From Candidatus Aldehydirespirator sp. (GTDB lineage Bacteria; Actinomycetota; Acidimicrobiia; Acidimicrobiales; Aldehydirespiratoraceae), in assembly GCA_965205155.1 (NCBI GenBank), contig OZ242033.1, positions 2,299,572 through 2,363,571 on the forward strand: 64,000 bases of DNA. Reading direction: 5' to 3'. Below are positions 52,015 through 52,067 of this stretch, piece by piece; position 1 is the stretch's first letter; every line of letters begins with the position of its first letter. The notes under the pieces were generated by a model. The model ran no database searches. It saw only the letters and a program-made list of their open reading frames with translations, and was not told the DNA's origin. The position numbers and the translations under genes are program-made.

Positions 52015-52067
52015 TCTCTCTCTCTCTCTCTCTCTCTCTCTCTCTCTCTCTCTCTCTAGCGGCACTG
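52015..52067. repeat. (TC)26 dinucleotide microsatellite
   Basis: An uninterrupted tc run from 52015 to 52067, followed by a duplicated ctctagcggcac motif. It lies 188 nt upstream of the first pilin-like gene. Confidence 0.97.

What the first reader, a model, noticed from the sequence alone, without database searches (positions are those of the whole stretch)
52015..52067. (TC)26 microsatellite upstream of the pilin genes: candidate phase-variation or H-DNA switch
A perfect 53-nt polypyrimidine/polypurine dinucleotide tract is very unusual in a GC-rich bacterial chromosome. It lies 188 nt upstream of the first pilin-like gene, at the boundary between the variable region and the Tad-like locus. 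A duplicated ctctagcggcac motif follows it. Dinucleotide tracts in promoter regions are classic slipped-strand phase-variation devices for surface structures in other bacteria. Mirror-repeat TC tracts can also adopt triplex DNA that affects transcription.
Basis: partly seen in the sequence, partly recalled or inferred. Interest (0 to 1): 0.6.

Follow-up and report, generated by a model that had tools for sequence, protein, structure and literature searches.

The report
Length-variable TC repeat before pilin genes
A real, slippage-prone run of TC repeats lies in the untranslated stretch ahead of a pilus-gene cluster in a sponge-associated actinobacterium; relatives carry it at the same spot with different lengths, so it is a good but unproven candidate switch for pilus production.

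Summary
The tract is real but shorter than reported. It is (TC)21T, 43 nt, at 52015-52057, not 53 nt/(TC)26. Chance expectation is about 1e-21. The next-longest dinucleotide run in the 64 kb has 4 units.

Four related Acidimicrobiia loci (Ca. Aldehydirespirator MAGs and metagenome contigs) carry a TC tract at the orthologous site. It sits 180-197 nt before the first Flp-like pilin gene. Lengths differ (57, 28, 26 and 26 nt perfect cores) between alignable flanks, so this is an active microsatellite.

More distant relatives have poly-C (7, 10, 12, 15) at a similar distance. There it abuts a divergent prepilin-peptidase start.

The flanks are non-coding by substitution pattern. They match no Rfam family and show no excess RNA stability.

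The only -10-like hexamer kept in all five lineages lies upstream of the tract. It is followed after exactly 9 nt by an invariant ATG, and the ORF from that ATG reads through the tract. Tract length sets where this ORF stops: at the tract junction, about 105 nt before the pilin start, or at/near it.

I favour a post-initiation contingency switch (leader ORF frame and/or Rho loading on (UC)n). This is unproven. A neutral microsatellite remains a strong rival. H-DNA is disfavoured by strand orientation.

The parts
51874..51879 (+). Candidate -10 hexamer TACCCT. It is TATCAT or TATGAT in relatives. Positions 1, 2 and 6 are invariant and positions 3-5 vary.
   Evidence: It is the only TANNNT hexamer present at the same alignment column in all five TC-type leaders. 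There is a constant 9-nt spacing to the invariant ATG. It is not detected by the sigma-70 consensus scan. This assignment is an inference.
51889..52059 (+). Candidate leader ORF (uORF). It starts at an invariant ATG, has 42 codons before the tract, then (Ser-Leu)7 encoded by the tract, then the junction TAG.
   Evidence: The ATG is invariant in five lineages. The ATG-to-GGCCCTGA distance is 96, 96, 93, 156 and 72 nt, all multiples of 3. Against: the substitution pattern is flat across codon positions, and there are no protein homologues.
51835..52014 (+). Upstream block of the leader module, shared by all TC-type relatives.
   Evidence: It aligns in window, L002, L003, L022 and L023 at 71-94% identity, although the genes further upstream differ. 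It is non-coding by substitution pattern.
52015..52057 (+). (TC)21T microsatellite. The pyrimidine strand is the pilin sense strand.
   Evidence: Orthologous tracts of different length are seen.
52057..52059 (+). Junction TAG, formed by the last T of the tract plus AG. It is the stop of the leader ORF in this genome.
   Evidence: CTCTCTAGC is invariant in all five lineages.
52052..52085 (+). 17-nt tandem duplication CTCTCTAGCGGCAC(T/C)GG x2 at the 3' edge of the tract. It adds a second TAG at 52074 in another frame.
   Evidence: It is present in window and L002 and single-copy in L003, L022 and L023.
52058..52254 (+). Downstream part of the leader. It includes the conserved block GAGCCCGG(T/C)AGGGC at 52142-52155, a TGA at 52232-52234 (the stop of the one long post-tract frame), and the RBS AGGAGGA at 52243-52249.
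   Evidence: No TANNNT hexamer occurs here in any lineage.
51977..52102 (.). 13-bp inverted repeat (51977-51989 and 52090-52102) that brackets the tract.
   Evidence: repeat I1. It is 89% paired across five sequences against 37-55% for slid controls, but no compensatory changes are seen. The result is inconclusive.
52255..52656 (+). First Flp-like pilin gene (133 aa). It has the leader motif ...RRDDSG/LTTLEWLLIVAAVAGLA.
   Evidence: Weak DUF4244 match, below the cut-off. A JGI source names homologues 'Flp pilus assembly pilin Flp'. The N-terminal 78 aa are near-invariant and the C-terminus is hypervariable.
52668..53204 (+). Second pilin-like paralogue (178 aa).
53257..53601 (+). Third small gene of the pilin cluster (114 aa from a GTG start). 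The reading frame is open from 53245. The start is uncertain: orthologues in relatives are about 150 aa and carry an Flp-like N-terminus.
   Evidence: Orthologues: L003 7966-8430, L004 6448-6921 and L005 8399-8854.
54611..55765 (+). CpaB-like SAF-domain protein. It was used as the anchor to find related loci.
   Evidence: Pfam SAF 2.1e-08. pilus_cpaB matches below the cut-off. Relatives were found.
56893..58488 (+). TadA/CpaF-family secretion ATPase.
   Evidence: T2SSE 3.6e-26. TIGR03819 1.5e-58, below the cut-off.
58561..59469 (+). TadB/C-like membrane protein.
   Evidence: T2SSF 6.9e-07.
50725..51480 (-). Uma2-family endonuclease gene, the nearest upstream gene, divergently oriented. It is not part of the conserved module.
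   Evidence: Pfam Uma2 3.9e-19. The gene is duplicated in L002 and L003 and absent upstream of L022 and L023.

Best explanation
The tract is an active, slippage-prone (TC)n microsatellite. It is embedded in a roughly 420-nt non-coding leader module that travels with the Flp/Tad-like pilin operon in one clade of sponge-associated Acidimicrobiia.

Shown: the tract exists. It is orthologous in five lineages. It stays pure while its flanks have diverged by 6-29%. Its length differs between lineages.

Inferred: it acts as a contingency switch or rheostat on pilin expression after transcription initiation. In this model, transcription starts just downstream of the conserved TANNNT hexamer at 51874-51879. 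A short leader ORF starts at the invariant ATG at 51889 and is translated through the tract. Each gain or loss of a TC unit shifts that ORF by 2 nt.

In one frame of three, ribosomes run to the pilin start region. The stop is a TGA 20 nt before the pilin ATG in window and L002, and a TGA overlapping the ATG as ATGA in L003, L022 and L023. In the other two frames, ribosomes stop at or near the tract junction, or about 105-114 nt before the pilin ATG.

Reaching the pilin start would couple pilin translation to the leader ORF and keep the (UC)n RNA covered. Stopping early would leave a long untranslated leader with a naked (UC)21 tract, which is an ideal Rho-loading sequence, and so attenuate the operon.

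By this reading the window genome (43 nt, junction TAG) is one repeat unit away from the long frame.
For: The tract is real and non-random.

Orthologous TC tracts occur in other lineages:
- L002: 57 nt.
- L003: 26-nt core within a 50-nt pyrimidine run.
- L022: 26 nt.
- L023: 28 nt within a 36-nt run.
They lie 180-197 nt before the pilin ATG between alignable flanks.

The tracts are pure, although the flanks differ at 6-29% of sites. That indicates ongoing slippage.

Related lineages with a different intergenic region carry poly-C of 7, 10, 12 or 15 at 147-192 nt from the pilin ATG. C10 and C12 occur between strains whose immediate downstream flank is identical by eye and whose surrounding 510 nt are 90% identical. 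One contig starts exactly at the tract edge.

The leader module stays attached to the pilin operon while the upstream genes differ.

There is no TANNNT hexamer between the tract and the pilin ATG in any lineage. One is conserved upstream, with positions 1, 2 and 6 fixed and 3-5 variable. It has a fixed 9-nt spacing to an invariant ATG. The frame from that ATG to the tract is preserved across three independent indels of 3, 60 and 24 nt (chance about 0.04).

The TAG at the tract junction is invariant, and each lineage has exactly one long post-tract frame ending at or next to the pilin start.

The tract is predicted to be unpaired in the leader RNA. Its C/G ratio of 2.2-2.4 exceeds the 99th percentile of the window.

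From the literature:
- 15 rUrC repeats are an efficient artificial Rho-dependent terminator that works only when untranslated (PMC5021804, describing Guerin et al. 1998).
- Rho clefts bind 5'-YC, and sequences of about 30 nt can suffice (PMC12360218).
- Mycobacterial NucS mismatch repair does not correct 1-2-bp indels (PMC11551767).
- The pilin C-terminal domains are hypervariable, as expected for a surface structure under diversifying pressure.
Against: - No transcription start, read-level heterogeneity or expression data could be obtained.
- The sigma-70 scan finds no promoter. The promoter consensus of Acidimicrobiia is not established.
- The leader ORF shows no codon-position bias in substitutions (15/17/13 and similar). 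Its GC3 is only 0.80-0.88 with a high GC2. It has no SD sequence, is not called by gene finders in any locus, and has no protein homologues.
- Open frames of this length are common at 70% GC.
- Three of five lineages sit in the 'long' frame, which is not significantly more than one third.
- Leader divergence is about equal to synonymous divergence in the adjacent pilin gene. There is therefore no clear purifying selection on the leader as a whole.
- Predicted RNA stability is not above shuffles (z = 0.6 and 0.0).
- Long poly-G/C tracts also occur at other intergenic sites of related loci. SSRs are therefore tolerated in these genomes without an obvious role.
Confidence: 0.42

Rival explanations
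1. The tract is a neutral, self-sustaining microsatellite with no regulatory role. A pyrimidine-rich seed expanded by replication slippage in an organism that cannot repair small indel loops. The seed may have been the complement of a GGGAGAGA-type Shine-Dalgarno region of a lost divergent prepilin-peptidase gene. The tract persists because slippage outpaces point mutation.
For: - In relatives that keep the divergent peptidase gene, the tract is a G-run on the minus strand directly 5' of its start codon: G7-AGTTCT-GTG in L021, G10-A-TTG in L004, and G15-AGAGACTGCT-GTG in L005.
- L005 reads TCTCT+C15, which looks like a hybrid of the two tract types.
- The long TC tracts occur only in lineages that lack the peptidase gene at this site.
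- The 5' parts of the L003 and L023 tracts are degenerate, as in ageing microsatellites.
- Other long homopolymers sit at unrelated intergenic sites in related loci.
- The leader is no better conserved than synonymous sites of the pilin gene.
- NucS-type repair ignores 1-2-bp indels (PMC11551767).
Against: - No nucleotide homology is detectable between the TC-type leader and the poly-C-type intergenic region. The Shine-Dalgarno origin is therefore conjecture.
- This is the only SSR of 5 or more units in 64 kb. Yet all five TC-type lineages keep at least 13 pure units at the same site, next to a surface-structure operon.
- The invariant junction TAG, the invariant ATG and the frame-preserving indels are not predicted by neutrality.
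Confidence: 0.3
2. The tract is a promoter-distal spacer. In this model the pilin promoter lies downstream of the tract. Length changes rotate or displace an upstream operator or activator site (the conserved block 51985-52014 or 51935-51952) relative to the core promoter, giving graded expression.
For: The 30 nt immediately 5' of the tract (GGCCCTGACGCGACG.C.GT.CGCGG.CGCG) and the roughly 40 nt 3' of it are the best-conserved non-coding stretches in the five-way alignment. A conserved block GAGCCCGG(T/C)AGGGC lies about 100 nt before the ATG.
Against: - No TANNNT or sigma-70-like element exists between the tract and the ATG in any lineage.
- The TA of TAGGGC is not kept in L022 and L023.
- The palindrome at 51935-51952 is broken in L022 and deleted in L023.
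- Tract lengths differ by up to 31 nt between lineages, which is hard to reconcile with helical phasing.
Confidence: 0.1
3. The tract is an H-DNA or R-loop element. In this model the homopurine-homopyrimidine mirror repeat forms an intramolecular triplex under negative supercoiling. The triplex then blocks transcription or replication, or promotes rearrangement at the edge of the variable region.
For: - It is a perfect 43-bp mirror repeat.
- (GA)16 formed H-y DNA in E. coli plasmids (PMC11667243).
- The tract lies near the point where synteny with poly-C-type relatives ends, and next to a region with duplicated Uma2 genes.
- A 17-nt duplication sits at its edge.
Against: - The in-vivo H-y detection required chloramphenicol-raised supercoiling and acidic pH.
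- Transcription blockage is reported when the purine strand is non-template. Here the pilin sense strand is the pyrimidine strand, so only leftward antisense transcription would be hindered.
- The interrupted tracts in L003 and L023 break mirror symmetry, yet the element is retained.
Confidence: 0.08
4. The tract lies in a true protein-coding gene, so this would be a conventional intragenic frameshift switch of a small secreted or regulatory protein with a (Ser-Leu)n repeat.
For: An ORF with a conserved ATG spans the tract in all five lineages, and its frame is preserved across indels.
Against: Substitutions are spread evenly over codon positions. The post-tract sequence is read in different frames in different lineages. 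No homologue exists among 5.8 billion proteins, and no gene is called there in any locus.
Confidence: 0.03
5. The tract is an assembly or sequencing artefact.
For: The relatives are MAGs. Repeat lengths in long-read assemblies can be miscounted.
Against: The tract is found at the same site in five independent assemblies from different projects and sources (NCBI MAGs and a JGI metagenome).
Confidence: 0.01

Closest known systems
Haemophilus influenzae hmw1A/hmw2A heptanucleotide (ATCTTTC)n repeat in the adhesin 5'-UTR (PMC12721329)
   Same: Both are long, pyrimidine-rich SSRs upstream of an adhesin or surface-structure gene. The hmw repeat is transcribed as part of the 5'-UTR, and its length tunes expression post-transcriptionally rather than by changing promoter spacing. 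Natural isolates differ in repeat number.
   Different: The repeat unit is 7 nt there and 2 nt here. The hmw mechanism is a repeat/G-rich hairpin cut by RNase III, whereas no stable hairpin involving the tract is predicted here. The phylum differs. Here transcription of the tract and any effect of its length are only inferred.
Helicobacter pylori CT dinucleotide repeats in the 5' coding region of outer-membrane protein genes such as oipA and hopZ (own knowledge; reviewed in PMC3960876, found but not read)
   Same: The repeat is the same dinucleotide. It acts by shifting a reading frame in 2-nt steps through three states, and it controls surface proteins.
   Different: In H. pylori the repeat lies in the structural gene itself. 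Here it would lie in a separate leader ORF, and the structural pilin gene is never frameshifted. The tracts here are two to four times longer.
Haemophilus influenzae hifA/hifB (TA)n and Neisseria or Bordetella poly-C/G promoter-spacer tracts for pili and fimbriae (own knowledge; SSR surveys PMC2651432 and PMC1891110 were found but not read)
   Same: These are SSRs in the control region of pilus or fimbrial genes, with slipped-strand length changes.
   Different: Those tracts sit between or next to the -35 and -10 elements and are short. This tract is 43-57 nt long, 180-197 nt from the start codon, and has no promoter element flanking it.
Actinobacterial slippage switches: the Bifidobacterium breve pilus replication-slippage switch (PMC9187656) and Mycobacterium tuberculosis homopolymer-tract phase variation (PMC10334774). 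NucS does not repair small indels (PMC11551767).
   Same: The phylum is the same (Actinomycetota). These are slippage-driven reversible variants, one of them controlling pili. The lack of indel-correcting mismatch repair provides the mutational basis.
   Different: Those systems use short G/C homopolymers, mostly within genes. Here the tract is a long dinucleotide repeat in a non-coding leader. The poly-C relatives (L004, L005, L021, L024) are closer to that pattern. Whether this organism uses NucS was not checked.
Artificial (rUrC)n Rho-dependent terminator (Guerin et al. 1998, as described in PMC5021804)
   Same: The RNA sequence is identical. Fifteen UC repeats suffice as an efficient rut site in E. 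coli, and they are active only when not covered by ribosomes. The window has 21.5 repeats on the pilin sense strand.
   Different: That element is synthetic and was tested with E. coli Rho. No natural length-variable rut microsatellite is known to me. Rho dependence here is untested.
H-DNA-forming (GA)n.(TC)n mirror repeats (PMC11667243)
   Same: The sequence class is the same, and the length is above the (GA)16 shown to form H-y DNA in E. coli plasmids.
   Different: Formation needed non-physiological conditions. The orientation here is the permissive one for pilin transcription.

Membership tests
SSR contingency (phase-variable) locus | A tandem short-unit repeat much longer than chance and long enough to slip. 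| tested here: met
   (TC)21T; 0 of 100 shuffles contain even (TC)7; expectation about 8e-22.
SSR contingency (phase-variable) locus | Repeat number differs between strains or relatives while the flanks stay homologous. | tested here: met
   43, 57, 26, 26 and 28 nt perfect cores in window, L002, L003, L022 and L023. C10 versus C12 in related poly-C strains.
SSR contingency (phase-variable) locus | Length heterogeneity within one population, or a high reversible switching rate. | not testable with these tools
   No reads are available. Logan and ENA contigs of the same or near strains stop short of the tract (L001, L015, L027, L028). Only a hint: contig L026 starts exactly at the poly-C edge.
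SSR contingency (phase-variable) locus | The tract lies where its length changes expression: in an ORF, a promoter spacer or a 5'-UTR. | tested here: inconclusive
   It is not a promoter spacer. It probably lies in a transcribed leader and inside a candidate leader ORF, but the transcription start is unknown and the ORF lacks codon-level support.
SSR contingency (phase-variable) locus | The controlled gene encodes a surface or host-interaction structure. | tested here: met
   Flp-like pilin genes followed by CpaB-like, TadA/CpaF-like and TadB/C-like genes. The pilin C-termini are hypervariable.
SSR contingency (phase-variable) locus | Expression changes with repeat number. | not testable with these tools
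   Needs reporter fusions or matched transcript/protein and genotype data.
H-DNA regulatory element | A homopurine-homopyrimidine mirror repeat of sufficient length. | tested here: met
   A 43-bp perfect mirror repeat. (GA)16 sufficed in E. coli plasmids (PMC11667243).
H-DNA regulatory element | The purine strand is the non-template strand of the regulated transcript, which is the orientation that blocks elongation. | tested here: not met
   The pilin sense (non-template) strand is the pyrimidine strand. The rule comes from PMC11667243.
H-DNA regulatory element | Triplex formation under physiological supercoiling and pH. | not testable with these tools
   Requires chemical or enzymatic probing.
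Rho utilisation (rut) site | A C-rich, G-poor, unstructured RNA stretch of about 30-90 nt with YC dinucleotides. | tested here: met
   The 78-nt windows over the tract have C/G of 2.2-2.4, above the 99th percentile of 1.86, with 23-25 YC steps. The tract is unpaired in the MFE and consensus folds. Criteria are from PMC12360218.
Rho utilisation (rut) site | It lies on a transcribed RNA that is untranslated or only conditionally translated. | tested here: inconclusive
   This is inferred from the position of the only conserved -10-like hexamers and from the leader ORF frames. There are no transcript data.
Rho utilisation (rut) site | Termination depends on Rho. | not testable with these tools
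   Needs bicyclomycin treatment, Rho depletion or in-vitro termination assays.
Flp/Tad-type pilus locus (context) | Flp-type prepilin, TadA/CpaF ATPase, TadB/C platform proteins, CpaB and a prepilin peptidase. | tested here: inconclusive
   T2SSE, T2SSF and SAF match above the Pfam cut-offs. The pilins match DUF4244, and the CpaB and TadA NCBIfam models match only below their cut-offs. No A24 peptidase is found in the 64-kb window, although relatives have one beside the pilin gene.
Regulatory leader ORF with translational coupling | A conserved start, a preserved frame, and a stop at or overlapping the downstream start. | tested here: inconclusive
   The ATG is invariant and the frame is preserved over three indels. 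An ATGA overlap occurs in L003 and L023, and a stop 20 nt before the ATG in L002. However, there is no SD sequence, no codon-position signal, and 3 of 5 lineages in the long frame is not significant.

The most novel reading that the evidence does not exclude
The tract could be a mutable Rho-loading site gated by a phase-variable leader ORF. The (UC)n microsatellite would be both the frameshifting element of a near-leaderless upstream ORF and a natural, length-tunable rut site.

Repeat number modulo 3 would decide whether ribosomes shield the tract and deliver themselves to the pilin start codon (ON). Otherwise they would stop at the invariant junction TAG and leave naked (UC)n RNA for Rho to terminate the operon (OFF).

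This would be a heritable, reversible switch acting through transcription-translation coupling. It would be the first contingency locus described in Acidimicrobiia or in uncultivated sponge symbionts.
Probability: 0.15. Interest if true: 0.8.

Novelty: new member of a known kind. Interest (0 to 1): 0.5.

Why it matters
Phase variation by simple sequence repeats has been worked out almost entirely in a few cultivated pathogens. This tract is long, pure and length-polymorphic, and it sits at one fixed site ahead of Tad-like pilin genes in five lineages of uncultivated, sponge-associated Acidimicrobiia. That suggests symbionts may use the same bet-hedging logic for a host- or phage-exposed surface structure.

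The hypothesis is directly testable with existing metagenome reads by counting tract-length alleles.

If the leader-ORF/Rho reading holds, it would add a new way for a repeat to control a gene, namely by gating transcription termination. It would also provide a natural counterpart of the synthetic (UC)n terminator.

If the tract proves neutral, it is still a useful strain-level marker. It would also be an example of microsatellite persistence in a high-GC bacterium.

Tried and rejected
- Rfam, at gathering thresholds on the whole window and at E<=10 on 51480-52300, gave no family in the leader. No tRNA is nearby.
- RNA folding of the leader on both strands was no more stable than shuffles: z = 0.6 and 0.0. 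The consensus fold of three sequences had a covariation term of only -0.85.
- The 13-bp inverted repeat bracketing the tract is kept in all five lineages but shows no compensatory change.
- The sigma-70 and terminator scan returned nothing.
- An ECF-like CGAAC...CGTT motif near the RBS is not conserved in L003 or L022 (by eye).
- The hairpin GCCGCCCGCTGGGGCGGC at 51935-51952 is invariant in three lineages. It is broken in L022 and deleted in L023, so I rejected it as a conserved structure.
- Coding potential of the flanks was rejected on a flat substitution pattern across codon positions. A search with the leader-ORF peptide found no hit among 8000 candidates.
- No remnant of a prepilin-peptidase gene lies upstream of the tract; tblastn gave no hit.
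- No repeat of 11 nt or more of the tRNA-Leu 3' end occurs near the tract, which argues against a simple att boundary.
- Attempts to reach read-level or same-strain variation failed. The exact pilin-1 sequence is 'not on record' for locus look-up. The contigs found for neighbouring genes stop short of the tract. L016 and L018 also end before the pilin genes.
- Anti-SD pairing of (UC)n with AGGAGGA gives only 6 of 7 pairs, including two wobbles, and is not predicted by folding. I rejected it.
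Full report
**Observation.** The window holds a perfect dinucleotide tract starting at 52015, as reported. It is (TC)21T, 43 nt, and ends at 52057.

The tract cannot be chance. No dinucleotide-preserving shuffle of the window contains even (TC)7. A first-order Markov estimate gives about 8e-22 expected tracts per 64 kb. Otherwise the window (70.5% GC) has no dinucleotide run above 4 units and no homopolymer above 7.

The duplicated motif is real. It is part of a 17-nt tandem duplication, CTCTCTAGCGGCAC(T/C)GG, at 52052-52085.

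The first pilin-like gene starts at ATG 52255, behind an AGGAGGA site at 52243-52249. This is 197 nt after the tract.

**Context.** Downstream lie:
- three small genes, two of which start with an Flp-like prepilin N-terminus (…RRDDSG/LTTLEWLLIVAAVAGLA) and give a weak DUF4244 match;
- a SAF/CpaB-like protein;
- a TadZ-position protein;
- a T2SSE ATPase;
- a T2SSF protein.

Upstream there is a divergent Uma2 endonuclease gene whose domain starts at about 51480. That leaves about 775 nt without coding signal. Further upstream lie a serpin and an 18-repeat RCC1 protein, back to a tRNA-Leu.

Related loci identify the organism as a 'Candidatus Aldehydirespirator'-like member of the Acidimicrobiales. 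The one paper found that mentions the genus is a comparative-genomics study of sponge-associated Actinobacteriota (PMC11706023; not read in detail).

**Relatives.** Using the CpaB-like protein and the pilin as probes, I obtained orthologous loci from genomes and metagenomes.

Four further lineages share the window's leader sequence, and each has a TC tract at the same site:
- L002: (TC)28T, 57 nt.
- L003: a 26-nt perfect core inside a 50-nt interrupted pyrimidine run.
- L022: (CT)13.
- L023: (CT)14 inside a 36-nt run.

The flanks align on both sides at 71-94% identity. The distance from tract to pilin ATG is 180-184 nt, or 197 nt where the 17-nt duplication is present.

The genes further upstream differ: Uma2 copies, CoA-transferase, or sirohaem synthase. 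The leader, the tract and the pilin operon therefore behave as one module.

The tracts are pure although their flanks have diverged by up to 29%. That is what ongoing slippage produces.

A second group of relatives (L004/L008/L009, L024/L025, L005, L021) has an unrelated intergenic region with a divergent prepilin-peptidase gene. These carry poly-C of 10, 12, 15 and 7 at 147-192 nt from the pilin ATG. On the other strand this is a G-run immediately 5' of the peptidase start codon.

C10 and C12 separate strains whose immediate downstream flank is identical by eye and whose surrounding 510 nt are 90% identical. One contig begins exactly at the tract edge.

The window, L002 and L003 have no peptidase gene in the sequence held.

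**What the flanks are.** Substitutions between lineages are spread evenly over the three codon positions on both sides of the tract (15/17/13 and 12/12/11). The flanks are therefore not conventional coding sequence.

No Rfam family matches, even at E<=10. Predicted RNA stability equals that of shuffles. A 13-bp inverted repeat brackets the tract in all five lineages but shows no compensatory change.

The leader is about as diverged as synonymous sites of the adjacent pilin N-terminus: 0.72-0.94 identity against 0.68-0.80. Both are far more diverged than fourfold sites of the CpaB-like gene, at 0.94-0.96. The pilin-plus-leader module is thus a hypervariable island within a conserved assembly locus. 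By itself the leader shows no clear purifying selection.

**Where the tract sits relative to expression signals.** The sigma-70 scan finds nothing.

Searching the five-way alignment for the actinobacterial-type TANNNT hexamer gave none between the tract and the pilin ATG in any lineage. Exactly one is shared by all five, at window 51874-51879:

| Lineage | Hexamer |
|---|---|
| window, L002 | TACCCT |
| L003, L023 | TATCAT |
| L022 | TATGAT |

Positions 1, 2 and 6 are fixed and positions 3-5 vary.

Exactly 9 nt downstream in all five is an invariant ATG (window 51889). The ORF from it runs into the tract in every lineage. The distance from this ATG to the conserved GGCCCTGA block is 96, 96, 93, 156 and 72 nt. 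All are multiples of three despite three independent length changes, which has a chance of about 0.04.

A TAG directly after the tract is invariant. Beyond the tract each lineage has exactly one long frame:
- It ends at a TGA 20 nt before the pilin ATG in window and L002.
- It ends at a TGA overlapping the ATG (ATGA) in L003, L022 and L023.

The other frames stop at the junction or 105-114 nt before the ATG.

The actual states are:

| Lineage | Where the leader ORF stops |
|---|---|
| window | junction TAG |
| L002 | 20 nt before the pilin ATG |
| L003 | ATGA overlap |
| L023 | ATGA overlap |
| L022 | 111 nt before the pilin ATG |

Several observations count against a translated ORF:
- The substitution pattern is flat, with GC3 of 0.80-0.88 and a high GC2.
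- There is no Shine-Dalgarno sequence.
- No gene is called there in any locus.
- There is no homologue in the protein database.
- Open frames are easy to find at 70% GC.

**Mechanism.** It is shown that this is an active microsatellite tied to the pilin operon. The rest is inferred.

I favour a post-initiation contingency switch. The tract is transcribed in a long leader, and 2-nt steps cycle a leader ORF through three frames. Only one frame carries ribosomes to the pilin start.

The RNA form of the tract, (UC)21, is the sequence used as an efficient synthetic Rho-dependent terminator. Fifteen repeats suffice, and it is active only when untranslated (PMC5021804). Rho's primary sites bind 5'-YC, and about 30 nt can be enough (PMC12360218).

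The tract is predicted to be unpaired, and its C/G ratio exceeds the 99th percentile of the window. Early termination of the leader ORF would therefore both uncouple pilin translation and expose a Rho-loading site.

Slippage itself is expected to be uncorrected if this organism relies on NucS-type repair, as other Actinomycetota do. NucS does not fix 1-2-bp indels (PMC11551767). I give this model family 0.42, and the specific ORF-plus-Rho version about 0.15.

**Rivals.** A neutral microsatellite is the main rival (0.3).
- In the poly-C relatives the tract is simply the G-rich ribosome-binding region of the peptidase gene.
- L005 reads TCTCT+C15.
- Long TC tracts occur only where that gene is gone.
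- The 5' ends of two tracts are decaying.
- Other long G/C runs occur at unrelated intergenic sites in related loci.

Against neutrality: no sequence homology links the two kinds of intergenic region. This is the only SSR of 5 or more units in 64 kb. Neutrality also does not predict the invariant ATG, the invariant TAG or the frame-preserving indels.

A promoter-distal spacer model (0.1) lacks any promoter-like element downstream of the tract.

H-DNA (0.08) is physically possible but is in the wrong orientation to hinder pilin transcription. In E. coli it needed raised supercoiling and acidic pH (PMC11667243).

A conventional protein gene (0.03) and an artefact (0.01) are essentially excluded.

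**Comparison with known systems.** By behaviour the closest system is the H. influenzae hmw 5'-UTR repeat. It is transcribed, pyrimidine-rich and length-tuned, and it acts post-transcriptionally (PMC12721329).

By repeat type the closest are the H. pylori CT repeats, which shift reading frames (own knowledge). By phylum the closest are the slippage switches of Bifidobacterium pili and of mycobacteria (PMC9187656, PMC10334774).

Membership in the class 'SSR contingency locus' is met on three criteria: tract length, inter-lineage polymorphism and a surface-structure target. It is inconclusive for functional placement. It is untestable here for within-population switching and for an effect on expression.

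I rate it a new member of a known kind, with interest 0.5. There is a 0.15 chance of a genuinely new mechanism, a mutable Rho-loading site gated by a leader ORF.

Noticed in passing
window 43792-45816 (-) and 46055-50068 (-): A serpin (Pfam 2.5e-67) and a 1338-aa protein with 18 RCC1 repeats lie here. The RCC1 protein also contains a near-perfect 33-nt x5.8 tandem repeat at 49516-49708. These eukaryote-like proteins sit between tRNA-Leu (40194-40280) and the Tad-like locus.
   Followed up: partly
window 55758-55884: A 62-nt tandem duplication (92% identity) spans the stop of the CpaB-like gene and the start of the TadZ-position gene. It duplicates an RBS-like GGGGAGG, a GTG and the codons for VLAVVAVG. 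The first copy therefore forms a mini-ORF.
   Followed up: no
window 58158-58464 and 59466-59539: 72/153-nt repeats encode a repetitive Asp/Gly/Arg-rich C-terminal tail on the TadA/CpaF-like ATPase. A 32-nt x2.3 repeat sits at the junction of the two following membrane-protein genes.
   Followed up: no
window 52255-53601; L002-L005 equivalents: Pilin paralogues and orthologues share a nearly invariant N-terminal ~78 aa, but their C-terminal domains cannot be aligned between lineages. The leader-plus-pilin module is much more diverged than the assembly genes between the same genomes: fourfold-site identity is 0.72-0.80 against 0.94-0.96.
   Followed up: partly
L003 8520-8532; L005 19362-19376; L004 5080-5088 (= L008 3250-3342); L023 3898-3907; L010 2308-2317: Long poly-G/C tracts (G13, G15, G9 or G16/G8/G18, C10, G10) occur at other intergenic positions of related Tad-like loci. 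The window has no counterpart at these positions.
   Followed up: partly
window 1-64000; L002; L003 versus L004 5107-5589, L005 6894-7373, L021 1351-1833: No A24 prepilin-peptidase gene is found in the window or in the two closest relatives. More distant relatives have one divergently adjacent to the first pilin gene, with the poly-G tract directly 5' of its GTG/TTG start.
   Followed up: partly
L026 position 1; L007 position 1: Short-read contig L026 begins exactly at the base after the poly-C tract. L007 begins about 35 nt after it. This suggests assemblies break at or near the tract.
   Followed up: no
L022 2130-2250: The leader of L022 carries a 60-nt in-frame duplication of the GCGCCGCCCGCTGG..CCGGCTGCG segment upstream of its TC tract.
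   Followed up: partly
window 6048-6115 (-): There is an Rfam ASdes sRNA match at 42.6 bits, just above the gathering score of 40.
   Followed up: no
window 50722-51810; L002 3291-4048 and 5860-6699; L003 2661-3445, 3809-4606 and 6303-6599: Uma2-family endonuclease genes are present in one, two and about three copies, respectively, immediately upstream of the leader module.
   Followed up: no
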